DNA of 13,940 nucleotides from a virus (lineage: Duplodnaviria; Heunggongvirae; Uroviricota; Caudoviricetes), in IMG/VR virus record IMGVR_UViG_2778261579_000007, positions 1 through 13,940 of that record; one strand, given 5' to 3'. Each line of letters begins with the position of its first letter. Within the stretch, counting starts at the first letter, position 1. This document shows, piece by piece, positions 1 to 13,940 of this stretch. The translations under genes were made by a program, and so were the position numbers. The notes beneath the pieces were generated by a model, which was given only the letters and a program-made list of their open reading frames with translations, was not told where the DNA came from and did not search any database.

Positions 1-49
1 CGGCCAGACGGAGGTCGCTGTCTTCACAGCTTACGAACCTGAGGAGTAA
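1..49 (+). CDS. hokD: Hok-family toxin, 3' end only (gene starts upstream of window)
   Basis: Frame beginning at nt 2 translates GQTEVAVFTAYEPEE then TAA at 47-49; this matches my memory of the HokD/RelF C-terminus. Followed by a GNRA hairpin (58-77) and an intrinsic terminator. Confidence 0.6.
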   Translation, partial: GQTEVAVFTAYEPEE

Positions 50-118
50 GAGACCCGGCGAGGGAGAAATCCCTCGCCACCTCTGATGTGGCAGGCATCC
101 TCAACGCACCCGCACTTA

Positions 119-145
119 ACCCGCTTCGGCGGGTTTTTGTTTTTA
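119..145 (+). terminator. Rho-independent terminator downstream of hokD
   Basis: Stem ACCCGC (119-124), loop TTCG, stem GCGGGT (129-134), then TTTTGTTTTT. Confidence 0.65.
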
Positions 146-265
146 TTTTCAACGCGTTTGAAGTTCTGGACGGTGCCGGAATAGAATCAAAAATACTTAA
201 GTAGCGCGCAGGGATAAGAGGGATGGTCCCTTAAAGGGGAGAGCTAATTATCCGGAAGGATTCTG

Positions 266-517
266 ATGATGAACATCGAAGAACTGCGTAAAATTTTTTG
301 TGAAGATGGCCTCTATGCTGTGTGCGTTGAAAATGGAAATCTTGTTAGTCATTACCGCATTATGTGTTTGCGAAAGAATGGGGCTGCGTTAATTAATTTT
401 GTGGATGGTCGAGTGACAGACGGATTTATCTTGCGCGAAGGTGAGTTTGTCACTTCATTACAGGCACTGAAAGAGATCGGAATAAAAGCAGGCTTTTCAG
501 CTTTTGCAGAAGAATAA
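266..517 (+). CDS. rem: Rem-like small prophage protein, 83 aa
   Basis: ATG at 266 preceded by GGAAGGA (254-260); 83-aa ORF. Position between hokD and ydfU matches Qin gene order from memory. N-terminus MMNIEEL resembles the Gns family. Confidence 0.55.
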   Translation: MMNIEELRKIFCEDGLYAVCVENGNLVSHYRIMCLRKNGAALINFVDGRVTDGFILREGEFVTSLQALKEIGIKAGFSAFAEE

Positions 518-583
518 ACTCATCTACAATCTTGCGCGGGGCTGAACTCCCGCTGAGTAACACCGTGCCACCGGAGAAAACCG

Positions 584-862
584 ATGGCACGCAACGTAAA
601 ATATTACAATTCTGATAATTCGCCCGTTCTTGCCTGCACGCACGGGCGGTATTCTCACGCATTCAAGTCTGAATGGTTCCAGCACCCTCCATGCACTGCA
701 GAACAGGCCGAATGGCTGATTCATTCTTACCGCAGGCGCGGGTTCGAGGTTAAGAAAGCTCTCAGTCTCGACTATCGGCACTGGATAATCTCTGTCAGGC
801 TGCCTTATTCCGAACGCCCACCACGTGCGTCCCGCACTTTCCAGCAACGGATCTGGAGGTAA
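584..862 (+). CDS. Hypothetical phage protein, 92 aa, translationally coupled to ydfU-like gene
   Basis: ATG 584 with GGAG 8 nt upstream; stop TAA 860-862 lies immediately before the GTG 864 start of the next gene. No family recognised. Confidence 0.45.
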   Translation: MARNVKYYNSDNSPVLACTHGRYSHAFKSEWFQHPPCTAEQAEWLIHSYRRRGFEVKKALSLDYRHWIISVRLPYSERPPRASRTFQQRIWR

Positions 863-863
863 C

Positions 864-1913
864 GTGCGGGTATTACTTAGACCTGTTCTGGTGCCTGAGC
901 TTGGGCTGGTGGTCCTTAAGCCGGGCCGTGAATCCATACAGATATTTCATAATCCTCGAGTGCTGGTGGAACCGGAACCAAAAAGCATGCGTAATCTGCC
1001 ATCCGGAGTCGTTCCTGCCGTTCGCCAGCCGCTGGCGGAAGACAAAACATTGCTACCGTTTTTTAGTAACGAACGGGTGATTCGTGCTGCTGGCGGCGTT
1101 GGCGCATTGTCTGACTGGCTATTACGTCATGTTACATCCTGCCAGTGGCCTAATGGCGATTACCATCACACTGAAACAGTCATTCACCGTTATGGTACCG
1201 GCGCAATGGTGTTGTGCTGGCACTGCGACAACCAACTGCGTGACCAGACATCGGAATCACTGGAGCTGCTTGCTCAACAAAATCTGACAGCATGGGTGAT
1301 TGACGTCATCCGTCACGCAATAAGCGGTACGCAGGAGCGGGAATTATCTTTGGCTGAATTATCCTGGTGGGCGGTCTGCAATCAGGTGGTGGATGCACTA
1401 CCTGAGGCTGTATCGCGTCGTTCGCTGGGATTACCAGCGGAAAAAATCTGCTCGGTGTACCGCGAAAGCGACATCGTACCGGGAGAGCAGACCGCCACCA
1501 GCATATTGAAACAACGCACAAAAAATCTTGCACCGTTGCCTTACGCCCACCAGCAACAAAACCCATCACAGGAAAAGACGGTGGTAAGCATCAACGTTGA
1601 TCCAGAGTCTCCGGAATCTTTCATGAAGCTGCCTAAACGTCGCCGCTGGGTTAAGGAGAAATACACTCGTTGGGTTAAGACACAGCCGTGTGCTTGCTGC
1701 GGTATGCCAGCCGACGATCCGCATCATCTGATTGGTCACGGGCAGGGCGGAATGGGAACAAAAGCACATGATCTCTTTGTGTTGCCTTTGTGCAGAAAGC
1801 ATCACAACGAGCTGCATACGGATACAGTGGCATTTGAAGAGAAGTATGGCTCCCAACTGGAGCTGATATTTCGTTTTATCGATCGCGCGCTGGCAATTGG
1901 CGTACTGGCGTAA
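864..1913 (+). CDS. ydfU: DUF968-type prophage protein with C-terminal HNH-like Cys/His motif, 349 aa
   Basis: GTG 864 preceded by GGAGG (855-859) gives 349 aa, the length I recall for K-12 YdfU. The ORF track extends to an upstream GTG at 825 without an RBS. C-terminus CACCG...HHLIGHGQGG...CRKHHNELH is HNH-like. Confidence 0.65.
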   Translation: MRVLLRPVLVPELGLVVLKPGRESIQIFHNPRVLVEPEPKSMRNLPSGVVPAVRQPLAEDKTLLPFFSNERVIRAAGGVGALSDWLLRHVTSCQWPNGDYHHTETVIHRYGTGAMVLCWHCDNQLRDQTSESLELLAQQNLTAWVIDVIRHAISGTQERELSLAELSWWAVCNQVVDALPEAVSRRSLGLPAEKICSVYRESDIVPGEQTATSILKQRTKNLAPLPYAHQQQNPSQEKTVVSINVDPESPESFMKLPKRRRWVKEKYTRWVKTQPCACCGMPADDPHHLIGHGQGGMGTKAHDLFVLPLCRKHHNELHTDTVAFEEKYGSQLELIFRFIDRALAIGVLA

Positions 1914-1926
1914 GTGGAGAACGAGC

Positions 1927-2679
1927 ATGAACCTTGAAGCCTTACCAAAATATTACTCCCCAAAATCTCCAAAATTGAGCGATGACGCTCCAGCGACAGG
2001 CACCGGTTGTTTAACAATTACGGATGTAATGGCAGCGCAGGGGATGGTGCAGTCGAAAGCACCACTTGGGTTGGCCTTATTTCTGGCAAAAGTTGGTGTT
2101 CAGGACGCTCAGTTTGCGATTGAAGGCCTGCTAAATTACGCGATGGCACTGGATAACCCGACATTGAACAAATTGAGTGAAGAAATCCGGTTACAGATTA
2201 TTCCTTACCTCGTGAATTTTGCCTTTGCTGATTACTCCAGGTCTGCGGCAAGTAAGGCTCGCTGTGAGCATTGTTCAGGTACGGGATTTTATAATGTATT
2301 GCGCGAAGTGGTGAAACACTACAGACGCGGGGAATCTGTAATCAAGGAAGAATGGGTGAAGGAACTATGTCAGCATTGCCATGGTAAGGGCGAAGTCAGC
2401 ACAGCGTGCAGAGGGTGTAAGGGTAAAGGGATTGTTCTGGATGAAAAAAGAACCCGGTTTCATGGCGTACCGGTATATAAGATTTGTGGGCGTTGTAATG
2501 GAAACCGGTTTAGTCGTTTACCGACCACGCTGGCACGACGTCATGTCCAGAAGCTGGTACCAGACCTGACCGATTATCAGTGGTATAAGGGGTATGCGGA
2601 CGTCATTGGTAAACTGGTAACAAAGTGCTGGCAGGAAGAAGCATACGCGGAAGCGCAATTGAGGAAGGTGACGAGATAA
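1927..2679 (+). CDS. quuQ: Late-gene antiterminator Q, 250 aa
   Basis: ATG 1927 with GGAGAA upstream gives 250 aa. Multiple CxxC zinc motifs (CEHCSGTG, CQHCHGKG, CRGCKGKG, CGRCNGN). Sits directly upstream of a promoter/terminator pair and the lysis cassette. Confidence 0.8.
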   Translation: MNLEALPKYYSPKSPKLSDDAPATGTGCLTITDVMAAQGMVQSKAPLGLALFLAKVGVQDAQFAIEGLLNYAMALDNPTLNKLSEEIRLQIIPYLVNFAFADYSRSAASKARCEHCSGTGFYNVLREVVKHYRRGESVIKEEWVKELCQHCHGKGEVSTACRGCKGKGIVLDEKRTRFHGVPVYKICGRCNGNRFSRLPTTLARRHVQKLVPDLTDYQWYKGYADVIGKLVTKCWQEEAYAEAQLRKVTR

Positions 2680-2710
2680 ATGATTTTTGCTGAAGATGGC
2701 GACATGATGT

Positions 2711-2739
2711 TTGCATTTTTCAAAAAATATGGATAAAAT
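2711..2739 (+). promoter_or_regulatory. Candidate late promoter pR' (-35 TTGCAT, 17-bp spacer, -10 TAAAAT)
   Basis: Hexamers at 2711-2716 and 2734-2739, immediately 3' of Q and about 50 nt 5' of an intrinsic terminator; this is the lambdoid pR'/qut/tR' layout. Sequence-only inference. Confidence 0.3.
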
Positions 2740-2784
2740 TTTTTCAATGATGGGCTTTGTATACCCGACGTTAAGAAAAAGTAG

Positions 2785-2808
2785 AAAACCCGCTGATGAG
2801 CGGGTTTT
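2785..2808. terminator. Bidirectional intrinsic terminator (candidate tR' and cspF terminator)
   Basis: AAAA-CCCGCT-GATG-AGCGGG-TTTT: perfect stem flanked by A-run and T-run, between quuQ (+) and convergent cspF (-). Confidence 0.55.
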
Positions 2809-3100
2809 GTGCTTTAAATGGGGCAATGGTAATGTTGAATCTCATCCCGGGACTCATGTCTGTTAACTTATTATTTAGCTGGTGACTTGGTTATTTGCCT
2901 GATGTTTAAAATGTTTTCTTCCAGTACAATGTCCCTAAACACAATGAGTCTGCTTATTATATTATTAGCAGAGCTATTACGGCCAAAGTACAGCATAAGC
3001 TTTTAAAGCCAATCAACCAGTCATCAAGACAGACGGGGTTATTCATAAAAACTCTCCATGTGTGATCCGATGGGGCCTGAAATTAAAGCTTTAATATAGC

Positions 3101-3313
3101 TCATGAAAGGTAAACATTGGCAGCTGAAGGGCCACGCAGACCATTTATCCGGCAAAATTCCACGCGTAATCCGGTGGTAATTTCTTCTGCATCGCGGAGA
3201 TTGAGCGCTGAAACATGAAGCTGGACATCGATACGACCATCGGATGGGGTGATAAGACCCTTGCCGCTTTTGCCGTCAAAGGTTTTGACAATTCCTGTCA
3301 TTTTACGGGACAA
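3101..3313 (-). CDS. cspF: Cold-shock protein CspF-like, 70 aa
   Basis: Translation [37 protein letters not shown]... is a CspA-family cold-shock domain; divergent from cspB as in Qin. Confidence 0.85.
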
Positions 3314-3613
3314 AAAAATTCCTTAATACTGATAACTTGGCGCACTATACACACGTTCCTGAAGAAAGCTATAGTTTTTTGATGGGGTTGAAGATGGCTG
3401 GATGTCTAAAATAAACATTGCTTCATATGTTCAACTATGCGTTAATGATTGCGTCGGTTTGAAGAACAGACGATATACGAAGTAGTTTACTAAAGCAGTT
3501 CTCATTTCAGGTGTTATTCACTTATTCCTTCTTTGAGTCTCTCCAATTAAGTACGAAGTCGTTTCTGTTATGCAAACCATTTATGCCGAAAGGCTCAAGT
3601 TAAGGAATGTAGA

Positions 3614-3829
3614 ATGTCAAATAAAATGACTGGTTTAGTAAAATGGTTTAACGCTGATAAAGGTTTCGGCTTTATTTCTCCTGTTGATGGTAGTAAAGAT
3701 GTGTTTGTGCATTTTTCTGCGATTCAGAATGATAATTATCGAACCTTATTTGAAGGTCAAAAGGTTACCTTCTCTATAGAGAGTGGTGCTAAAGGTCCTG
3801 CAGCAGCAAATGTCATCATTACTGATTAA
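3614..3829 (+). CDS. cspB: Cold-shock protein CspB-like, 71 aa
   Basis: [38 protein letters not shown]...: canonical CspA-family RNP motifs; about 300-nt upstream leader typical of cold-shock genes. Confidence 0.85.
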
Positions 3830-4110
3830 AATTCATCGCTCGTCTGTATACGATAACGAAGAAGGCTGATGCCTGAGTAGAGATACGGACAGAGTAGTGA
3901 ATATTGGATTTCTTTAATAAAATTTAAGGAGGTCCAATACATGAAACAATGGCCAGCATATTTGGCAAAATCTTAATCAGGAAAAGTATGCTAACCATTG
4001 TGGTGAAGTGCAGGTTTGCTGCATGAATAGTTTTACAGCAGAAGCTAACTGCTGGCATGGCAAAACAAAGTGCGTAAGTGGATGACTCCCACAAAAAGCA
4101 CCACAATCTC

Positions 4111-4134
4111 AAACCCGCTCAGGCGGGTTTTTTA
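4111..4134 (+). terminator. Rho-independent terminator
   Basis: AAA-CCCGC-TCAG-GCGGG-TTTTTT at 4111-4133; lies between cspB 3' region and the convergent minus-strand zinc-ribbon ORF. Confidence 0.55.
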
Positions 4135-4192
4135 TTATCTGCTTTAAATATATTATTAAAATATAAAAAATACTTGTTACTAATAAAATCAA

Positions 4193-4363
4193 TCAGGCTA
4201 CAGCTTTAAGATTTGTCTGGAATACTTTGTTGCAATGAGGGCAGATCAAAAGGGCACCTTTTTGTACTCTTGAAAAACTGTGTTCTGACTCTTGGGTGCA
4301 GTTTGGGCAGGAACATTTAACGAGATAATTACGGCGTGATTTTGAGTCTTTACGTTCTGACAT
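4193..4363 (-). CDS. Small zinc-ribbon protein, 56 aa (CxCxxC...CxxC)
   Basis: Minus-strand ATG at 4363 has AGGAAA 6 nt upstream; the ORF-track start at 4414 lacks an RBS. Motif CSCPNC-x18-CPHC. Possibly the Qin ynfU equivalent, but I cannot confirm this from memory. Confidence 0.45.
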   Translation of the reverse strand: MSERKDSKSRRNYLVKCSCPNCTQESEHSFSRVQKGALLICPHCNKVFQTNLKAVA

Positions 4364-4582
4364 AGGCTTTTCCTGTATAAATGGCCGTATACAGTACACT
4401 AAATATGAAAACATTTCTCGTATTATTATTTTATATATGACTTTCTTTCAAAATAATTACTCACATTTTTAATGTGTATGTTTCTTTAGCGCCGTTGAGA
4501 ACAGCGTGTGCTGTCAAAACTACCCCGTAGACTCCGATCTTTTCAAACATATTGCACCATCCGTGTACATCGGGGTGAGGAT

Positions 4583-6138: not shown

Positions 6139-6501
6139 ATTAATATTAAATCGGATTATTTTTAGCGCTGAATGTGAAATTTAAATAAAAAGGACTCTTC
6201 CATGAGTCAAAATCCTTGAAATCTTAAGGGTAAGATAAAAGGTCATTAGACAGAATGACACGTTTTATTAATAAATAAAGCTATTGTTTCATTCGTGTGT
6301 TTTTCTTTACAAAAGTAATCCTTGCTATGGTTGGTTAATCATGCGTTAATGGTGTTCTGGTTTGTTACAAAATTATCTGAAGCAGTCATTGTTATAATTT
6401 TATTATTTGTACCTCTTGAGATTTCCTTGTTGGTTTTTCTCTCTGATATTTTTTTTCGGACCATTCTGCCCAAGGGCTAACTTCTTCAAAAGGTAATAAT
6501 G

Positions 6502-6714
6502 ATGTCTAACAAAATGACTGGTTTAGTGAAATGGTTTAACCCTGAAAAAGGTTTTGGTTTCATCACGCCGAAAGATGGTAGCAAAGATGTGTTTGTGCAT
6601 TTCTCAGCTATTCAGAGCAACGATTTCAAAACGTTAACTGAGAATCAGGAAGTCGAATTTGGTATTGAGAACGGACCTAAAGGCCCTGCAGCTGTTCATG
6701 TAGTGGCACTTTGA
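6502..6714 (+). CDS. cspI: Cold-shock protein CspI-like, 70 aa
   Basis: [45 protein letters not shown]...; second ATG of the ORF chosen to give the canonical CspA-family N-terminus; about 360-nt AT-rich leader upstream. Confidence 0.85.
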
Positions 6715-6918
6715 GGTAGAAAATATTACAAACCATATTCACTTTAGATGCCCGTGTTGCCATGGTTCTCAGTATAGAACATCATCTTTTGATGTTTCTG
6801 ACAGAAATCCTTTCGGGGCAAAATGTATCTTTTGTAAATCAATGATGATTACATTTGATAATATTTCACAATACTTAAATGTTAGCCATCTGTCGTTAGA
6901 TTTAAGAAAGTGAAAATG

Positions 6919-8064: not shown

Positions 8065-8400
8065 TCACCATAACTGCTAACCATTCTGACCATTTCACAA
8101 GTGACAGAGTCAATATCGTATTCTGTCACTGTAAGGCTAATACAGTACTGCAATTCAACTACAGCAATGCCTCGTATTTAGGTGAATTTACAATATCGTC
8201 CAGTTCGGATGCCGGCTGCATTTCTGAAGATAAGGCATTTCGGTTCGCGTATTTTCCCCTCATGCTCGTCAGTCCTGCGCGTAGTAAGAAACAGGACACT
8301 CACACTAATTTGTGTGGGCATGCTGTGATGTCCTTCTGAATTATCCCCATGCCATTATGTAACGCTCTGTTTCAGATGCTCGTCACGGTTGTCAGGCTGT

Positions 8401-8485
8401 CGGGTCCTCCCAGTGGGGGTCCCTGCCACGGGGCGGGAGCGTCGCGGAAAAAGGCTAGTTTTTGAAATTTCATCCGTCATCACCA
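8401..8485. repeat. cos-like site copy 1 (cosQ-like GGGTCCTCCC, putative cosN 8431-8442 GGGCGGGAGCGT, start of cosB)
   Basis: Aligns to lambda cos junction recalled from memory (...ACGGGTCCTTTCCGGTGATCCGACAGGTTACG | GGGCGGCGACCT CGCGGG...). Nu1-like ATG lies 186 nt downstream of the putative cosN start; lambda has 190. Confidence 0.6.
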
Positions 8486-8616
8486 CTACTGTAATAGATT
8501 GATATTACAGTATTTTTATTTTTGCGGTGTCGATTTTGATTGTTTTTTGTTCATCACTAACACCGTTTGCCTAAAGTCGTTCGCAAGATGCATGTTTAAA
8601 ACATTCTGGAGCGGGT

Positions 8617-9111
8617 ATGGATCGAGAGTTAAAAAATCTGACGCTGAATATCAGTCAACTGGCGGCACTGTCAGGTGTACATCGCCAGACTGCTGCGGCA
8701 AGGCTGCAAAATCTACCCGTTGCAGGGGGGCATGAAAGCAACCTCAAGCTTTATCGGGTGGTTGATATTGTGTCGGCATTTCTGGCATTACCACCGCCGG
8801 TTGCAGAAGGCGAAATGGACGCGCATGAGCGCAAAGCCTGGTATCAGTCTGAACGTGAGCGTCTTAAGTTCGAACAGGAAACGGCGCAACTCATTCCGGC
8901 CAGTGATGTCAGACGGGAGTTTGCCATCTGGGCAAAAGCGGTCGTGCAGGTGCTGGAGACATTACCGGATATTCTGGAACGTGACTGCGGTCTGCAGCCT
9001 GCCGCTGTGAGCCGTGTTCAGTCCATTATTGATGATCTGCGCGATCAGATAGCCCTGCGGGTGACTGAAGCAGGTGCGGATGATGAGGAGGAATTACAGC
9101 AGGAGGAGTAA
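8617..9111 (+). CDS. Terminase small subunit, Nu1-like (copy A), 164 aa
   Basis: N-terminal HTH-like segment (LNISQLAALSGVHRQTAAARL) and overall pattern resemble lambda Nu1; GGAG RBS; positioned at the correct distance from cos; stop overlaps next ORF start (TAATG). Confidence 0.7.
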   Translation: MDRELKNLTLNISQLAALSGVHRQTAAARLQNLPVAGGHESNLKLYRVVDIVSAFLALPPPVAEGEMDAHERKAWYQSERERLKFEQETAQLIPASDVRREFAIWAKAVVQVLETLPDILERDCGLQPAAVSRVQSIIDDLRDQIALRVTEAGADDEEELQQEE

Positions 9112-9308
9112 TGCTGAATCAGGAAACCGCAAAGGCAGCACGAACCGATTCAGGTTATATCCTTCGCGCACCGAGACGAATGCGGGTTGCTGATGCCGTT
9201 GCTCAGTATATGCGGGTGCCCATGGGGGCAGGGAACTCAGTCCCGTGGGATCCGCTGGTGGCACCGTATGTTATTGAGCCTATGAACTGCCTGGCCTCGC
9301 GTGAATAG
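9111..9308 (+). CDS. Short ORF coupled to terS copy A, 65 aa (possible terminase-large-subunit remnant)
   Basis: ATG overlaps terS stop in the normal terS-terL coupling arrangement, but the ORF is only 65 codons; weak resemblance of PWDPLVAPYVIEPMN to the lambda gpA N-terminal region. Confidence 0.3.
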   Translation: MLNQETAKAARTDSGYILRAPRRMRVADAVAQYMRVPMGAGNSVPWDPLVAPYVIEPMNCLASRE

Positions 9309-9343
9309 ACAACCATCAACATTAAGTCCGGAGAGCAGACAGC

Positions 9344-9766
9344 ATGACAGCACAGATAGCAGCTTACGGGCGGCTGGCAAATGACCCGCAGTTAAAGACC
9401 ACCAGCAAGGGTACACAAATGGCAATGGCGAGTATGGCGGTCCCGCTGCCATGCAGCCAGGCAGATGACGGAACGGCGACGATGTGGTTATCCGTCTTGG
9501 CATTTGGCAGGCAGGCCGAAGCGCTGGCAAAGCACCGCAAGGGGGAACTCCTGAGCGTGGCTGGTAACATGCAGGTGAACCAGTGGACAGGCCAGAACGG
9601 CGAAATACGGCAGGGCTGGCAGGTTATCGCAGACAGTGTAATCAGTGCCAGAACGGCGCGACCAGGTGGTAAAAAAGGCCAACTGGGGCAGGCCACTGAC
9701 GCACTGAACAGGGCAAAACAACAGGCGGGAAATGATGATCCGTACGGGGATGAAATACCGTTTTAA
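9344..9766 (+). CDS. Single-stranded DNA-binding protein (SSB)-like, 140 aa, with C-terminal DEIPF tail
   Basis: OB-fold pattern alignable by eye to E. coli SSB (IAAYGRLANDPQLK.. vs ILVGNLGQDPEVRY..; WLSVLAFGRQAEALAKHRKGELLSVAGNMQVNQWTGQNG vs [40 protein letters not shown]) and acidic tail ending IPF. GGAGAG RBS. Confidence 0.7.
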   Translation: MTAQIAAYGRLANDPQLKTTSKGTQMAMASMAVPLPCSQADDGTATMWLSVLAFGRQAEALAKHRKGELLSVAGNMQVNQWTGQNGEIRQGWQVIADSVISARTARPGGKKGQLGQATDALNRAKQQAGNDDPYGDEIPF

Positions 9767-9781
9767 GCAACGAGTAACAGA

Positions 9782-9805
9782 AGCCGGAGCAATCCGGCTT
9801 TTTTA
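9782..9805 (+). terminator. Rho-independent terminator immediately 5' of cos copy 2
   Basis: AGCCGGA-GCAA-TCCGGCT followed by TTTTT. Confidence 0.6.
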
Positions 9806-9880
9806 TGGGTCCTCCCGGTGTAGTGACCTGCCACGGGGCGGGAGCGTCGCGGAAAAAGGCTGGTTTTTGCATTTTCATGG
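9806..9880. repeat. cos-like site copy 2 (cosQ-cosN, putative cosN 9836-9847 GGGCGGGAGCGT), orphan: no cosB/terS follows
   Basis: Near-identical to copies 1 and 3 over about 70 bp, then diverges into AT-rich sequence unrelated to the cosB/terS leader of the other copies. Confidence 0.6.
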
Positions 9881-10064
9881 CGGCGGCAGCATGTGTGATA
9901 ATTTATTGATAATTAAAAATTATTTCTGTTTTCACCTGTACAATATTTTTTTCTCCCTGTCATTAGACCAGTTTGCAATTAATTGAAATATATAAATAAA
10001 TTGGTTTTTCACCTGCCAGATGGAGTTGCCTGTGCAAAACGTGTTCAGATGGCGGGATATTTAT

Positions 10065-10087
10065 GCCGGATTCTCTCCGGCTTTTTT
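10065..10087 (+). terminator. Rho-independent terminator
   Basis: GCCGGA-TTCTC-TCCGGC followed by TTTTTT; same stem sequence as the 9782 terminator. Confidence 0.5.
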
Positions 10088-10189
10088 GTGTCTGAATCTG
10101 ATTAATCTATTTTTATGATAGAAATATGTTTATCTACCACTTTTATCGATCAATAATGCGCGCAGTTTAGTCAGTAAGAGGAAGTTACT

Positions 10190-10399
10190 GTGAATTGTAT
10201 TAACGACCTGAACACAGGCGAGGTAAAAGGTGGTTCCGTTCATCTGGATGCGCAGACCGTTATGCGCCTTAAGCAGTACAGGATCGACCACATAAATCAT
10301 CATCCTGACCAACCATTACCAGGTGCGGCGCAGATTGTCAGACACGCAGTTAACGCGTGGCTTGATAAGAATGGTTTTGCATCTGGGGGTGAGCAATGA
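10190..10399 (+). CDS. Hypothetical small protein, 69 aa, coupled to protease/capsid gene
   Basis: GTG 10190 with strong AAGAGGAAG RBS; in-frame stop 5 codons upstream so it is not a fragment of a longer frame; stop overlaps downstream ATG (ATGA). Confidence 0.45.
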   Translation: MNCINDLNTGEVKGGSVHLDAQTVMRLKQYRIDHINHHPDQPLPGAAQIVRHAVNAWLDKNGFASGGEQ

Positions 10400-12309
10400 A
10401 TCACTGGTACACCATTAAGGCGCTGGGTGTTCGCGGAGCGGCAGAAATATCCATCTATGAAGAAATTGGCGGCTTCGGTATTACCGCGAAGAAGTTTGCG
10501 GAAGACCTGAAAGCCCTGGGCGATGTCTCACATATCGACCTGCGGATCCATTCGCCAGGTGGTGACGTGTTTGAAGGCATCGCCATCTATAACCTGTTAC
10601 GGAATCATCCGGCAGAAATTACGGTTTATATCGATGGTGTTGCGGCTTCAATGGCTTCGGTTGTCGCAATGGCTGGCGATCGTGTTGTGATGCCGGAAAA
10701 CGCCATGATGATGATACATAAGCCGTGGGGTATCTCTGGCGGAAATGCTGGTGATATGCGTGATTATGCTGATTTGCTGGATAAGGTGGAAACCGTGTTA
10801 GTCCCTGCTTATGCCAGAAAAACGGGCAAATCAGCACAGGAAATTACCGCCATGCTGGAAGATGAAACCTGGATGGACGGGAAAGAATGCCTTAAGCACG
10901 GTTTTGCTGATGAATTGTTGCCATCTGTCACAGCAATGGCGCGAATTGAATCGAAACGCACAGGAGATTTTTCACACATGCCGGAAACCATTAAAGGAAT
11001 GATTATCCCGCCACAGGGAGCAGCCAATATTGCTGGTAATGAACAGAAGCGCATCAACGGAATAAGTGAAGTGTTTAGCCTGTTCGGCAGTCGTTACGAC
11101 GGGATCAAAATGGCGTGCCTGGAGGATGCATCATGTACACCGGAGATGGCCCGTGAAAAGTTGTTGAACGAGCTGGGGCGCGAGTCCACGCCATCCAATA
11201 AAAATATCCCGACTCATATTTATGCCGGTAACGGGAACATAACAGGCGATGCAATTCGTCAGGGGCTTTATTCTCGTCTCGGGTATGAACGCCCAGAGCG
11301 GGGAAATCCTTATGCGATGATGAGCCTTTTTGAAATGGCCCAGGCATCACTAACTGATCGTGGTATCAGTGTTGGCAGTTTTTTAAATCGCTCGCAGGTC
11401 GTTAATGCAGCTTTCACACACAGCAGCAGCGATTTTTCTCATATTCTGGCTGGTGGTGCTGAAAAGTCAGTGCTGAAAGGCTGGCAGGACAGCGGCGAAA
11501 CGTTCCAGAAATGGACGCGTACCGGATCGCTTTCAAACTTTCATGAAGCAAAGCGCGTTGGTCTGAATGGTTTTTCAAAGCTGGATAAAGTACCGGAAGG
11601 TGCGGAATATAAATACATCACCACCAGCGATAAAGGTGTACCTATTGCGCTGGCCACATACGGTAATATTTTTTCTGTTACCCGTCAGGCCATTATCAAC
11701 GATGACCTGACCCAGTTAACTACAATCCCCATGGCGATGGGGCGTGCGGCCGCCAGAACAGTAGGTAATCTGGTTTATCTTCTGTTAACCAGCAACGGCA
11801 AATTTACGGATGGTAAAGCGTTATTCCATGCCGATCATAAAAATCTTATTGCGAAGGATATGGACATGGAGGGGCTTAACGAAGCCCGTAAGCTGATGCG
11901 ATTACAGGAGGATGCCAACGGCGACTCCCTGAATATTACCCCCGCTTTTGTTCTGGTCCCTGCTGCGCTGGAGTCTGCCGCACATCGCGCCATTCTGTCA
12001 TCGTCATCACTCTTTCCGATTGATGGTGGAGGCACTATCAATCAGAACCCCGGCATCATTAACGCGGTGAAAGATATGGCAGAGGTTATCGTCGAGCCGC
12101 GTCTTGATAAAGCCAATAACAAGGAGTGGTATGTGGCAGCGGCGAAGGGGATGGACACGATAGAGGTCGCTTATCTTGATGGTATTGATACGCCATATCT
12201 TGAGGAGCAGGAGGGATTTACTGTTGATGGCGTCGCCTGGAAGGTGCGCATAGATGCAGGTGTCGCGGCCCTCGACTATCGCGGATTACTGAAATCGAGT
12301 GGAGCATGA
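10396..12309 (+). CDS. Prohead protease (ClpP/S14-like) fused to HK97-fold major capsid protein, 637 aa
   Basis: N-terminal ClpP-like motifs (HSPGGDV, GVAASMASVVAMAGD with candidate catalytic Ser, MMIHKPW with candidate His); C-terminal about 350 aa resemble capsid proteins of Gifsy-type lambdoid phages as I recall them. Confidence 0.75.
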   Translation: MNHWYTIKALGVRGAAEISIYEEIGGFGITAKKFAEDLKALGDVSHIDLRIHSPGGDVFEGIAIYNLLRNHPAEITVYIDGVAASMASVVAMAGDRVVMPENAMMMIHKPWGISGGNAGDMRDYADLLDKVETVLVPAYARKTGKSAQEITAMLEDETWMDGKECLKHGFADELLPSVTAMARIESKRTGDFSHMPETIKGMIIPPQGAANIAGNEQKRINGISEVFSLFGSRYDGIKMACLEDASCTPEMAREKLLNELGRESTPSNKNIPTHIYAGNGNITGDAIRQGLYSRLGYERPERGNPYAMMSLFEMAQASLTDRGISVGSFLNRSQVVNAAFTHSSSDFSHILAGGAEKSVLKGWQDSGETFQKWTRTGSLSNFHEAKRVGLNGFSKLDKVPEGAEYKYITTSDKGVPIALATYGNIFSVTRQAIINDDLTQLTTIPMAMGRAAARTVGNLVYLLLTSNGKFTDGKALFHADHKNLIAKDMDMEGLNEARKLMRLQEDANGDSLNITPAFVLVPAALESAAHRAILSSSSLFPIDGGGTINQNPGIINAVKDMAEVIVEPRLDKANNKEWYVAAAKGMDTIEVAYLDGIDTPYLEEQEGFTVDGVAWKVRIDAGVAALDYRGLLKSSGA

Positions 12310-12315
12310 CAACAA

Positions 12316-12339
12316 GGGCGGCGATAGCCGCCTTTTTTT
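12316..12339 (+). terminator. Rho-independent terminator immediately 5' of cos copy 3
   Basis: GGGCGGC-GATA-GCCGCC followed by TTTTTTT. Confidence 0.6.
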
Positions 12340-12340
12340 A

Positions 12341-12427
12341 CGGGTCCTCCCGGTGTAGTGACCTGCCACGGGGCGGGAGCGGCGCGGAAAAAGGCTAGTT
12401 TTTGCATTTTTATTCGTCATCATCATC
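12341..12427. repeat. cos-like site copy 3 (cosQ-cosN-cosB, putative cosN 12371-12382 GGGCGGGAGCGG)
   Basis: Same element as copies 1 and 2; Nu1-like ATG 196 nt downstream of putative cosN; leader 12534-12566 nearly identical to 8584-8616. Confidence 0.6.
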
Positions 12428-12566
12428 TTTCTATTATATTGAATTTTAAGTGTTTTTATTTTTGGTATGTTAATTTTGCTTATTTTGTGTTCAACATGCA
12501 GCGCGTTTTTTGACCTTTTTTAAAAGATATTTGCAAGATGCATTTTTAAAACATTCTGGAGCGGGT

Positions 12567-13052
12567 ATGGATCGGGAACTGAAAAATCTGATGCTGAACA
12601 TTAACCAGCTGGCGGCGATAGCGGGAATATGTCGCCAGACTGCGGCGGCAAGGCTGAAAAATATCCAGCCAGCCGGAGGACATGACAAGCTGAAACTCTA
12701 TCGGGTGACTGACATTCTGACCTGTTTTCTTGATCTTCCCGTTCCGGCATCACTGGAAGAAATGGAGCCACACGACCGTAAGGCCTGGTATCAGTCCGAA
12801 CGTGAGCGCCTCAAGTTCGAACAGGAAACGGCGCAACTCATACCCGCCGATGATGTGCGAAAAGAGATGGCTATATGGGGAGAAATCGTAAGCGAGGAAC
12901 TGGAAAAACTCCCCAGTATTCTGGCACGTGATGTTGGGCTTAAACCGATGGCAGTAAACAGAGTGCAGTCAATTATTGACGATTTGTGTAATCAGATTAT
13001 CAGCCGGATGGTAAAAAATGACGTAGTGAATGAGGTCGCAAAACAGGCATGA
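12567..13052 (+). CDS. Terminase small subunit, Nu1-like (copy C), 161 aa
   Basis: Start MDRELKNL is homologous to the copy A start and has the same GGAGCGGGT-ATG RBS context; the ORF track extends to ATG 12510, but that region is not coding in copy A. About 65-70% aa identity to copy A by eye. Confidence 0.7.
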   Translation: MDRELKNLMLNINQLAAIAGICRQTAAARLKNIQPAGGHDKLKLYRVTDILTCFLDLPVPASLEEMEPHDRKAWYQSERERLKFEQETAQLIPADDVRKEMAIWGEIVSEELEKLPSILARDVGLKPMAVNRVQSIIDDLCNQIISRMVKNDVVNEVAKQA

Positions 13053-13336
13053 TAATGACCGAATCTGAAATACTGCGATTAATCCGCTGTGCTGGTGGAA
13101 TTAGCCAGTTGGCTGACGAACAGGCCGCGCAGCCGGATACAGTCACCGCTGAAAATTACGCGCGTGTGGTGGCTGAGGTGATGCGCCGTGACGGTATTGA
13201 GCTTAACGGCGTGGATATGCGCAACATACGAACCAGAGTCCTTGAGTTGCTGGCATACCGTCGCCGTTCTCAACAACGGAGGGAGAGCGCGAAAAATACT
13301 TATCAGTGGAAGAAGCCGGAATGGTTGCGGCGGTAA
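13049..13336 (+). CDS. Probable truncated terminase large subunit (N-terminal 95 codons only)
   Basis: ATGA overlap with terS stop; N-terminus TESEILRLIRCAGGISQL resembles lambda gpA N-terminus (SQVNRLRHFVRAGLRSL) from memory; the ORF stops after 95 codons and downstream frames are full of stops. Confidence 0.4.
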   Translation: MIMTESEILRLIRCAGGISQLADEQAAQPDTVTAENYARVVAEVMRRDGIELNGVDMRNIRTRVLELLAYRRRSQQRRESAKNTYQWKKPEWLRR

Positions 13337-13710
13337 TTTGTTGATATTCCTGATAGCGCAAAAGTGCGTTGGCTGGTGGGTGAGTTGCAGATCTGCAACT
13401 CGACCATGAAATTACGGAAACTACCCGTAGTTTGGGTAGTAAGAGTAACACCCAGATTTTGGGGCTTACTTGCGATACCCAAATAAAGGGTATCGGTGGA
13501 AGAAATATCGTTTCTCATATGTGAGTTCCGAGAGCGGAATTCCGCCTCTGATTTGTCATTGTGATCATGCATAGCGGCAATAATTAATATTGCTTCCTTT
13601 TTTGCTTTTTTATCGCTTAAGCAGGTACTAAATCTGGGACTATGTTGTAGGGGGCATAACTCAATAGTACCTTATAATCATTTAGTTACCTTTTATTTAC
13701 TTCTTCCTGG

Positions 13711-13940
13711 ATGGAGGGTCCGGCAGCTGCTTATCAGACACTCTCGCAACTCGTTTACAAACTGCTTACTGCAGAACAGGAATACGAGACAACCGGAAGT
13801 GAAGAGACACTCAAGACGGTTATCAATACCGACTGGGGATTACCTTATCTTCCCCGCGCCAGCATGGAGCAACGAAAAAGTGAATTGCTTGAGCAGCGGG
13901 CAGAGCCAGTTCCTTCCCGCAGTGTGCCGGATGGCGTTAA
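13711..13940 (+). CDS. Hypothetical protein, 5' part only (ORF runs off window end)
   Basis: ATG 13711 opens a frame with no stop to the end of the window (76 codons); TATAAT at 13673-13678 upstream; no clear RBS. Function unknown. Confidence 0.3.
   Translation, partial: MEGPAAAYQTLSQLVYKLLTAEQEYETTGSEETLKTVINTDWGLPYLPRASMEQRKSELLEQRAEPVPSRSVPDGV

What the first reader, a model, noticed from the sequence alone, without database searches (positions are those of the whole stretch)
8431..12382. Putative cosN differs by one base between copy 3 and copies 1 and 2
The inferred 12-nt cohesive-end block is GGGCGGGAGCGT in copies 1 and 2 but GGGCGGGAGCGG in copy 3. Copy 2 also has G instead of A at 9859 (GGCTGGTTTT vs GGCTAGTTTT). 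Copy 1 is the most divergent in the cosQ-proximal part (CAGTGGGGGTCC vs CGGTGTAGTGAC). So the three sites are not recent identical duplicates; they are diverged, possibly of different phage origin. If the block really is the overhang, ends made at copy 3 would not anneal perfectly with ends made at copies 1 or 2.
Basis: seen in the sequence. Interest (0 to 1): 0.5.

Follow-up and report, generated by a model that had tools for sequence, protein, structure and literature searches.

The report
Three lambda-type cos sites, one-base variant
The three repeats are phage DNA-packaging cut sites, one from a decayed lambda-like prophage and two from a remnant of a satellite element inserted in it, and their one-base difference sits at a position already known to vary harmlessly among lambda-like phages, so the finding is real but ordinary.

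Summary
Three co-oriented copies of a ~72-nt core lie at 8402-8473, 9807-9878 and 12342-12413. The 12-mers are GGGCGGGAGCGT (8431, 9836) and GGGCGGGAGCGG (12371). One coordinate is slightly off: copy 2's extra G is at 9862, not 9859.

The copies align base for base with lambda cos. All three have the 7-bp cosQ (GGGTCCT), CG flanks at both nick positions, and the invariant left half GGGCGG. The variable base is position 12, next to the bottom-strand nick. This placement rests on homology, not on mapped ends.

The copies have three origins:
- Copy 1 is the cos of a Qin-like prophage.
- Copies 2 and 3 belong to a remnant of a helper-embedded PICI satellite inserted in that prophage's terL.
- Copy 2 is a complete cdtI/Tritos-type cos.
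- Copy 3 sits beside the satellite's own TerS.

T versus G at position 12 is also the lambda versus N15 difference. Published experiments show that positions 7-12 tolerate change and that ends mismatched at positions 9 and 12 still cyclise, with about 4-fold lower yield. Phages whose TerS is 99-100% identical to the window's prophage TerS carry either allele.

Verdict: ordinary natural cosN variation in a known kind of element. Low interest.

The parts
8402..8616 (+). cos copy 1, the prophage cos. cosQ GGGTCCT is at 8402-8408, cosN with its CG flanks at 8429-8444, then a cosB-equivalent stretch up to the terS start codon (186 nt from overhang base 1).
   Evidence: Alignment with lambda and Tritos. 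100% identical over 8385-8480 to phage mEp460_ev081. Geometry.
8431..8442 (+). Inferred 12-nt 5' cohesive-end block of copy 1, GGGCGGGAGCGT.
   Evidence: The Tritos and cdtI records start at the equivalent base.
8617..9111 (+). Prophage small terminase subunit (DUF1441, 164 aa).
   Evidence: Pfam PF07278, E=2.7e-41. PHROG 141, terminase small subunit.
9111..9308 (+). Truncated terL. Only the first 65 codons remain, ended by a stop created at a deletion junction.
   Evidence: tblastn to Tritos and cdtI TerL N-termini. Window 4557-9310 matches L003 11711-16466 and window 9308-13940 matches L003 23250-27882. Junction sequence.
9344..9766 (+). Satellite SSB gene (140 aa).
   Evidence: Pfam PF00436. 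Same gene in the satellites of L001 and L003.
9783..9804 (+). GC-rich hairpin plus T-run (terminator-like) that ends 2 nt before cosQ of copy 2.
   Evidence: Read from the sequence. The same terminator-cosQ junction lies upstream of EcCICFT073's cos at L047 2559.
9807..10043 (+). cos copy 2, the satellite's upstream cos. It is a complete cdtI/Tritos-type cos (cosQ, cosN, cosB) with no terS behind it.
   Evidence: Tritos nt 1-208 matches window 9836-10043 at 92.3%. The homology stops at the Tritos terS start.
9836..9847 (+). Inferred 12-nt cohesive-end block of copy 2, GGGCGGGAGCGT.
10190..10399 (+). orf69, a small conserved ORF that overlaps the start of the capsid gene. Function unknown.
   Evidence: PHROG 4934. 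Conserved at 78-100% aa in related satellites.
10396..12309 (+). Satellite ClpP-like prohead protease / major capsid protein fusion (637 aa).
   Evidence: Pfam CLP_protease plus Phage_capsid_4. RefSeq product names.
12317..12339 (+). GC-rich hairpin plus T-run after the capsid gene, directly before cosQ of copy 3.
   Evidence: Read from the sequence. The hairpin was also picked up by the terminator scan, which listed it on the - strand.
12342..12566 (+). cos copy 3, the satellite's downstream cos. cosQ, cosN and a cosB-equivalent stretch up to the satellite terS (196 nt from overhang base 1).
12371..12382 (+). Inferred 12-nt cohesive-end block of copy 3, GGGCGGGAGCGG. The variant base is G at 12382.
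   Evidence: The same G is found in all 11 satellite downstream sites sampled.
12567..13052 (+). Satellite-encoded small terminase homologue (DUF1441, 161 aa), 67-68% identical to the prophage TerS.
   Evidence: Pfam, PHROG 141, tblastn identities.
13049..13336 (+). orf95, a conserved satellite gene of unknown function.
   Evidence: PHROG 1561. A 73% aa homologue follows rppA and cos2 in EcCICFT073. No PDB or Pfam match.
13696..13940 (+). 3' part of the interrupted prophage terL (start of the gpA nuclease domain). It runs off the window.
   Evidence: Pfam GpA_nuclease. tblastn to TerL aa 303-383 / 325-405. Similarity to the satellite in L001 ends at about 13571.

Best explanation
**What the copies are.** All three are lambda-type cohesive-end sites. 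Each has the same layout:
- the termination signal cosQ (GGGTCCT), 29 nt upstream of the nick;
- cosN, written CG|GGGCGGGAGCG(T/G)|CG;
- a shared spacer;
- then a type-specific cosB-like region about 190 nt before a small-terminase gene.

A DUF1441 small terminase is inferred to bind the cosB region. It would position a gpA-family large terminase to make nicks 12 bp apart, leaving a 5' overhang GGGCGGGAGCG(T/G).

**Where each copy comes from.**
- Copy 1 is the cos of a Qin-like defective lambdoid prophage.
- From about 9308 to 13571 the window holds the right-hand third of a PICI-type satellite. That satellite had integrated into the prophage's terL (a 'helper-embedded PICI') and later lost its integrase-to-primase part through a 6.8-kb deletion.
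- Intact satellites of this type carry two direct cos sites flanking a capsid cassette.
- The upstream site (copy 2) copies the cos of cdtI/Tritos-type phages.
- The downstream site (copy 3) is paired with the satellite's own TerS.

[quoted passage not shown] That half is under little sequence constraint. Any change there is self-complementary, because both ends of a packaged genome come from copies of the same site. I read the difference as a neutral natural polymorphism between cos lineages, not as a functional barrier.

**Shown.** Sequence homology, gene context and allele distribution.

**Inferred.** Nick positions, which protein acts at which site, and neutrality in this particular system.
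For: **Homology with lambda cos.** cosQ, the CG flanks, the GGGCGG left half and a cos-to-terS distance of 186-196 nt (lambda: 191) all match.

**Terminase type.**
- TerL has the gpA ATPase and gpA nuclease domains.
- TerS is DUF1441 / PHROG 141, terminase small subunit.

**Record ends.** The Tritos and cdtI records begin at the first G of the block, and Tritos ends just before it.

**Context.**
- E. coli IMT16316 has the same prophage with the complete satellite splitting terL at about aa 325-331. Its genes run int, IS1, BRO, Icd-like, DUF4222, primase, SSB, capsid fusion, DUF1441, orf95.
- The window is 99-100% identical to it on both sides of a 6.8-kb gap.
- An independent copy of the satellite sits between cspD and clpS in strain ECL27977, with the same two cos sites.
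- Helper-embedded PICIs in late genes including A (terL) are described in PMC10111431.

- Phage-type sites with TerS 99-100% identical to the window's prophage TerS carry T in most cases and G in at least 9.
- All 11 satellite downstream sites carry G.
- Satellite upstream sites carry T (5) or G (2).
- In 21 of 25 satellite cos pairs the two cosN cores differ.

**Literature.**
- Lambda and N15 ends differ at positions 9 and 12. N15 has G at 12.
- Mismatched ends are viable with about 4-fold lower yield. Lambda TerL cuts both cosN versions equally well. Positions 7-12 vary naturally while cosQ, positions 1-6 and the CG flanks do not. [quoted passage not shown]
- The bottom-strand nick lies between bp 12 and 13 (PMC9026076).
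Against: - No physical end mapping was found for any phage or satellite with this cosN. The Tritos and cdtI record ends may themselves have been set by analogy with lambda. The Tritos paper text I searched does not describe end mapping, and the cdtI paper is not held.
- The IMG/VR counts come from redundant, related contigs and a truncated scan. They are not independent events.
- G is fixed in every sampled satellite downstream site, so selection at that base cannot be excluded.
- In a related satellite family the distance between the conserved CG flanks is 10, 11 or 12 nt. That does not fit a simple fixed-geometry picture.
- The remnant in this window has no integrase, primase or intact terL nearby. 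Its cos sites may never be cut at all.
Confidence: 0.85

Rival explanations
1. The T/G difference is functional. It would keep the satellite's two cos sites from acting as partner ends, so that initiation at one and termination at the other gives poorly cyclising DNA. That would protect the capsid cassette from being cut out, or separate two packaging routes that use different helper phages.
For: - G is fixed in all 11 sampled satellite downstream sites, while the upstream site is mostly T.
- 21 of 25 satellite cos pairs have different cosN cores.
- The two sites have different cosB types, one matching cdtI/Tritos phages.
- A 2-position mismatch lowers yield about 4-fold in lambda (PMC4669245).
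Against: - A single terminal mismatch is expected to cost less than the viable 2-position lambda/N15 mismatch.
- One complete pair is G/G (L072), and a second satellite has G at its upstream site with its downstream site not recovered (L138).
- Capsid-less derivatives with a single hybrid cos exist anyway (L058).
- Fixation of G may simply reflect shared ancestry of closely related satellites (92-100% aa identity in the capsid fusion).
Confidence: 0.1
2. Copy 2 (the upstream satellite cos) is a non-functional or even harmful relic, like cos2 of EcCICFT073. Only the site next to the satellite's TerS would be used, so the mismatch never matters.
For: - In EcCICFT073 only cos1 is needed for transfer, and deleting cos2 raises transfer (PMC6092414 and PMC6739421).
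- Copy 2 has no terS behind it, and a terminator-like hairpin follows at 10065-10087.
- Some satellites lack the cassette and the second site altogether (L058).
Against: - Copy 2 keeps an intact cosQ, cosN and 208 nt of Tritos-type cosB at 92% identity.
- It is retained in satellites at different chromosomal sites.
- Both EcCICFT073 cos sites did support plasmid transfer when cloned.
- Termination needs only cosQ and cosN, so a terminase passing through would still see copy 2.
Confidence: 0.35
3. The 12-mer is not the overhang. This terminase family would nick elsewhere, so the variable base lies outside the cohesive end.
For: - No mapped termini were found for this cosN type.
- Published statements for related phages (mEp213/LLS) say the ends are inferred.
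- The spacing between the CG flanks varies in a sister family.
Against: - The alignment with lambda cosQ and cosN is base for base, with the CG flanks at both expected nick positions.
- TerL belongs to the gpA family.
- N15, whose 12-nt 5' extension is annotated in its record, has the same layout with G at position 12.
Confidence: 0.05

Closest known systems
Bacteriophage lambda cos (cosQ-cosN-cosB), and the cosN variation described among lambda-like phages (lambda, 21, phi80, N15, phiD326, Gifsy-1)
   Same: - 7-bp cosQ GGGTCCT about 30 nt upstream.
- CG flanks at both nick positions and the invariant left half GGGCGG.
- Variation confined to positions 7-12.
- terS about 190 nt downstream, and a gpA-family TerL.
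- T versus G at position 12 is the lambda/N15 difference.
   Different: - Positions 7-11 are GAGCG rather than CGACC.
- cosQ is 29 rather than 30 nt from the nick.
- The lambda R3 sequence is not present at bp 50-65.
- TerS is a DUF1441 protein with no phmmer match to solved structures, lambda Nu1 and Rpp included.
- The ends have not been mapped.
EcCICFT073, the model Gram-negative PICI with two cos sites (Fillol-Salom 2018, 2019)
   Same: - A satellite that carries two lambda-like cos sites with differing cosB regions.
- A terminator-cosQ junction of the same form.
- A capsid gene homologue upstream, a packaging-specificity gene directly after the main cos, then an orf95 homologue at 73% aa.
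   Different: - Here the gene after the cos is a full TerS homologue (DUF1441), not Rpp.
- The capsid gene is a protease-capsid fusion rather than lambda E-like capsid plus decoration genes.
- The two cos sites are direct repeats 2.5 kb apart flanking the capsid cassette. In CFT073 they are inverted, about 750 bp apart, and flank rppA.
- The two cosN differ by one base here but are identical in CFT073.
Helper-embedded PICIs (HE-PICIs) integrated in prophage late genes (PMC10111431)
   Same: In the intact relative (IMT16316) the satellite is co-oriented with the terL gene of a lambdoid prophage and splits it. The satellite has an integrase, a Bro-type gene, a primase and late-gene zones.
   Different: - The copy in the window is a remnant. 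A 6.8-kb deletion removed part of terL and the integrase-to-primase region.
- That paper describes a shared 258-bp cos region but not a pair of cos sites.
- I could not map this insertion onto the paper's named sites.
SaPI-type satellites that encode their own small terminase, and P4 / cos-SaPIs that carry the helper's cos
   Same: Copy 3 with the satellite TerS resembles the 'own TerS' strategy. Copy 2, a near copy of a helper-type cos, resembles the 'carry the helper's cos' strategy (strategies as summarised).
   Different: Both strategies appear together in one element here, in a cos rather than a pac system. Neither has been tested for this satellite.

Membership tests
Lambda-type cos site | cosN: 12-bp block with a conserved left half (GGGCGG) and CG dinucleotides flanking both nick positions | tested here: met
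   All three copies read CG|GGGCGGGAGCG(T/G)|CG and align with lambda. Criteria taken from PMC4669245 and PMC9026076.
Lambda-type cos site | cosQ: conserved 7-bp element about 30 nt upstream of the nick | tested here: met
   GGGTCCT at 8402, 9807 and 12342, 29 nt upstream of overhang base 1. In lambda it is 30 nt upstream. That cosQ is this particular heptamer is from my own knowledge. The paper states only that cosQ is a highly conserved 7-bp site.
Lambda-type cos site | cosB: TerS-binding R sequences (R3 at about bp 50-65), with or without an IHF site, between cosN and terS | tested here: inconclusive
   A ~190-nt AT-rich region lies in the right place. The bp 50-65 sequences differ between copies: TCACCACTACTGTAAT, GGCAGCATGTGTGATA and TCATCATCTTTCTATT. 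No lambda R3 match and no clear repeated R motif was identified, and the binding sites of DUF1441 TerS are unknown.
Lambda-type cos site | Located just upstream of terS-terL, with a gpA-family large terminase | tested here: met
   Copies 1 and 3 lie 186 and 196 nt before DUF1441 terS genes. Copy 2's homologue in Tritos lies 196 nt before terS. TerL has the gpA ATPase and nuclease domains.
Lambda-type cos site | Cut by terminase to give 12-nt 5' cohesive ends | not testable with these tools
   Only indirect support: the Tritos and cdtI records begin at the block. No end-mapping data were found.
Gram-negative PICI / helper-embedded PICI | Integrase, AlpA-type regulator and primase/replication module, unidirectional, 10-20 kb | tested here: not met
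   These genes are absent from the window, which holds only SSB through orf95. They are present in the intact relatives: L003 (int, IS1, BRO, Icd-like, DUF4222, primase) and L001 (int, HTH, Icd-like, DUF4222, primase). The window element is therefore a remnant of a PICI, not a complete one.
Gram-negative PICI / helper-embedded PICI | [quoted passage not shown] | tested here: met
   The terL 5' part (9111-9308 here; 331 codons in L003) and the terL 3' part (from about aa 325; 13696 onward here) flank the satellite on the same strand. Definition from PMC10111431.
Gram-negative PICI / helper-embedded PICI | Carries cos site(s) and a packaging-redirecting gene (Rpp or TerS) | tested here: met
   Two cos sites and a DUF1441 TerS homologue. 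The protein is not an Rpp: no match to solved Rpp structures.
Capsid-forming PICI (cf-PICI) | Encodes a full head and packaging set (capsid, protease, portal, connectors, HNH, TerS, TerL) | tested here: not met
   The intact relatives have only a protease-capsid fusion and TerS. No portal, connectors, HNH or TerL are present. Definition from the cf-PICI preprint.

The most novel reading that the evidence does not exclude
Satellites of this subfamily may deliberately keep two complete cos sites with different initiation specificities around an optional capsid cassette. One site is a near copy of the cdtI/Tritos helper cos and would be read by the helper's own TerS. The other is read by the satellite's TerS. 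This would let the satellite exploit two helper lineages. Under this reading, the usually different cosN cores of the two sites mark two separate packaging series. Terminase cutting from one site to the other would then generate the capsid-less single-cos derivatives seen in nature.
Probability: 0.2. Interest if true: 0.45.

Novelty: new member of a known kind. Interest (0 to 1): 0.2.

Why it matters
For the finding as stated, it matters little. A T/G change at position 12 of a lambda-type cohesive end is a documented kind of natural variation, and experiments show it is tolerated.

The context is more useful for annotation:
- It explains why three cos sites sit within 4 kb: a prophage cos plus the two cos sites of an embedded satellite remnant.
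- It shows the prophage cannot package itself, because its terL is destroyed.
- It identifies a PICI subfamily that has its own TerS, a protease-capsid fusion and two direct cos sites of different cosB type.

If the two sites really serve two helper lineages, that would add a helper-range strategy to the known satellite repertoire.

Tried and rejected
- **Literature search for the overhang sequences.** I searched for the exact overhang strings (GGGCGGGAGCG and variants). Only unrelated G-quadruplex and primer papers came back.
- **Published end mapping.** The Tritos paper text does not describe it. The Ayreon note says the cos position was only assumed. The cdtI paper and the Vahanian/Feiss cosN survey are not held.
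- **Satellite TerS and orf95 versus Rpp or other solved structures.** No meaningful match.
- **A structured RNA in the repeat.** Rfam finds only two cspA thermoregulators elsewhere in the window.
- **My first collection scan.** The pattern was one base too short in the variable part. It missed this cosN type and instead recovered a sister family. That family proved useful for the pair comparison.
- **My first reading of copy 2.** I took it to be cosQ plus cosN without cosB. The alignment with Tritos showed it has a full cosB of another type.
- **A coarse 48-nt classification of cosB types.** It mislabelled one phage subclass as copy-3-like. Checking TerS identities corrected this.
- **The terminator scan.** It did not list the two hairpin/T-run structures before copies 2 and 3 on the + strand. 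They are reported from direct reading.

Full report
**1. Observation**

The window holds three co-oriented copies of a ~72-nt core, at 8402-8473, 9807-9878 and 12342-12413. A 63-nt pattern that allows the variable positions matches exactly these three places. It gives no match in 200 shuffles.

- The 12-mers are GGGCGGGAGCGT at 8431 and 9836, and GGGCGGGAGCGG at 12371.
- The extra G in copy 2 is at 9862, not 9859. The 10-mer that contains it starts at 9858.
- Core identities are 63/72 (copy 1 vs 2), 62/72 (1 vs 3) and 69/72 (2 vs 3).

**2. The repeats are lambda-type cos sites**

I joined lambda's right and left ends and aligned them with the three copies. The match is base for base:
- GGGTCCT lies 29 nt upstream of the block in the window and 30 nt upstream in lambda. 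Assigning this heptamer to cosQ is from my own knowledge.
- CG precedes the block.
- The left half GGGCGG is identical.
- CG follows position 12.
- A terS gene starts 186 nt (copy 1) or 196 nt (copy 3) after overhang base 1, against 191 nt in lambda.

The neighbouring proteins fit this reading. The two DUF1441 proteins fall in the PHROG for small terminase subunits. The large terminase has the gpA ATPase and gpA nuclease domains.

Published work defines what to expect. cosN is the 12 overhang bp plus 2 flanking bp on each side, and the bottom-strand nick lies between bp 12 and 13 (PMC9026076). The 7-bp cosQ, positions 1-6 and the CG flanks are conserved among lambda-like phages, whereas positions 7-12 vary (PMC4669245).

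By homology, then, the variable base is the last base of the 5' overhang. The Tritos and cdtI records begin at the equivalent G, and Tritos ends just before it. I found no statement that these ends were mapped. This step therefore remains inference.

**3. The three copies have three origins**

- *Copy 1* is 100% identical over 96 nt to the cos region of phage mEp460_ev081. It follows genes typical of a Qin-like prophage, as shown by the product names in the near-identical E. coli IMT16316 locus: essD, ydfR, rrrQ, rzpQ, cspI, ynfN, gnsB.
- *Copy 2* matches nt 1-208 of phage Tritos at 92%. That span runs from the cohesive end through the whole cosB region and stops at the Tritos terS start codon. 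Copy 2 is therefore a complete cos of a second cosB type, not a truncated one. Its bp 50-65, where lambda has R3, differ completely from copies 1 and 3. Tritos TerS is only 42% identical to the window's prophage TerS.
- *Copy 3* resembles copy 1 at about 76-79% over roughly 500 nt, including terS. It is followed by a TerS that is 67-68% identical to the prophage protein.

**4. Context: a satellite remnant inside terL**

IMT16316 carries the same prophage with a complete PICI-type satellite splitting terL. The N-terminal terL fragment has 331 codons, and the C-terminal fragment starts at about aa 325. The satellite genes run: integrase (interrupted by IS1), BRO, Icd-like, DUF4222, primase, SSB, capsid fusion, DUF1441 and a small ORF.

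The window is 99% identical to that locus up to 9310 and 100% identical from 9308 onward. It lacks the 6.8 kb in between. The junction shows no real microhomology and creates a stop codon after terL codon 65.

An independent copy of the satellite sits between cspD and clpS in strain ECL27977. It has the same two cos sites and the same T/G pair. About 88 complete E. coli genomes carry at least 80% of the 8300-12600 segment.

Satellites integrated in late genes of lambdoid prophages, including gene A, have been described as helper-embedded PICIs (PMC10111431).

The satellite is related to the model PICI EcCICFT073. The terminator-cosQ junction has the same form, and orf95 has a 73% identical homologue there. 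That element is known to carry two cos sites with different cosB regions. Only cos1 is needed for transfer (PMC6092414 and PMC6739421).

There are clear differences:
- The window's satellite has a TerS homologue where EcCICFT073 has rppA.
- It has a protease-capsid fusion instead of E-like capsid and decoration genes.
- Its cos sites are direct repeats around the capsid cassette. In CFT073 they are inverted around rppA.

**5. The T/G difference in a wider sample**

I classified each site by its neighbouring genes.

| Site type | T at position 12 | G at position 12 |
|---|---|---|
| Copy-1-like (type A) cosB sites, by a coarse 48-nt classification | 57 | 12 |
| Satellite downstream sites (next to satellite TerS) | 0 | 11 |
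| Satellite upstream sites | 5 | 2 |

- At least 9 of the type A G sites are followed by a TerS 99-100% identical to the window's prophage TerS. The same terminase therefore lives with either base.
- One phage-type site has a 1-nt deletion at this position.
- In a sister satellite family the two sites of a pair also usually differ. Over both families, 21 of 25 pairs have different cosN cores.
- The contigs are related and redundant. These numbers are descriptive, not counts of independent events.

**6. What the mismatch would mean**

Both ends of a packaged genome normally come from copies of the same site in a concatemer. A change in the overhang is therefore automatically self-complementary.

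Ends from two different sites would mismatch at position 12. The closest experiment is the lambda/N15 case. Those ends differ at positions 9 and 12, and N15 has G at 12 (GGGCGGCGTCCG, annotated as a 12-base 5' extension). The results were:
- Chromosomes with one lambda end and one N15 end cyclise, replicate and give plaques, with about 4-fold lower yield.
- Lambda TerL cuts both cosN versions equally well.

A single mismatch at position 12 should cost no more than this. In the window itself the question is probably moot. The satellite remnant lacks integrase and primase, and the prophage's terL is destroyed. The sites could only be cut by a terminase supplied by another phage.

**7. Verdict**

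The feature is ordinary natural variation in the tolerant half of cosN. It distinguishes cos sites of three lineages that were brought together by a known kind of satellite-in-prophage arrangement.

The least ordinary point is that this satellite subfamily keeps two full cos sites of different cosB type around an optional capsid cassette. A relative without the cassette has a single hybrid site (L058). Whether that is a dual-helper strategy or just history is untested.

Noticed in passing
window 9111-9310 and 13696-13940; L003 16266-17258, 17462-27513 and 27644 onward: The prophage terL is split between its ATPase and nuclease domains by a PICI-type satellite, a helper-embedded PICI. In the window a further 6.8-kb deletion removed the rest of the terL 5' part and the satellite's integrase-to-primase region. 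The junction has almost no microhomology and creates a stop after terL codon 65.
   Followed up: partly
L005-L046 (for example L009 at 4194 and 6731; L017 at 9039 and 11576): In a sister satellite family, the block between the conserved CG flanks is 10, 11 or 12 nt long (for example GGGCGGAGGGG vs GGGCGGGCGG). The two sites of one satellite often differ in length as well as sequence. This is hard to reconcile with a fixed 12-bp nick spacing unless the right-hand flank is read differently. Not explained.
   Followed up: partly
L058 at about 6376 (also L060 at 11171 and L078 at 1828): Some related satellites lack the capsid cassette. They have one hybrid cos, with the upstream flank of the upstream site, G at position 12, and the downstream flank of the terS-side site. 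This is consistent with gain or loss of the cassette through the two direct cos repeats, by recombination or by terminase cutting.
   Followed up: no
window 13049-13336; L047 3374-3655: orf95 (PHROG 1561, function unknown) has a 73% identical homologue at the right end of the model PICI EcCICFT073, just after rppA and cos2. It is a conserved, uncharacterised satellite gene placed next to the packaging-specificity gene.
   Followed up: partly
L047 2559 (+) and 3309 (-): In E. coli CFT073 the two lambda-type cos sites of EcCICFT073 are in inverted orientation, about 750 bp apart, flanking a 144-aa gene that is presumably rppA. Both have GGGCGGCGACCT. The window's satellite instead has direct repeats.
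   Followed up: partly
window 3453-3845 and 6344-6760: There are two cspA-type thermoregulator 5' leaders with cold-shock protein genes (71-aa ORFs at 3614-3829 and 6499-6714). They account for the 200-nt direct repeat D1 (73% identity) and are typical of Qin-like prophages.
   Followed up: partly
window 10044-10399: Homology of copy 2 to Tritos ends at the point where Tritos terS starts. A terminator-like hairpin follows at 10065-10087. After it comes a conserved 69-aa ORF (PHROG 4934, GTG start) whose stop overlaps the start of the protease-capsid gene. RefSeq instead annotates a short ORF on the opposite strand in the equivalent region of L001 and L003.
   Followed up: no
window 1913-4557: This stretch has no match in the otherwise near-identical IMT16316 prophage. 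Window 1-1913 is only 94.9% identical. The prophage's Q/antiterminator-proximal region is therefore a different module, showing mosaicism.
   Followed up: no
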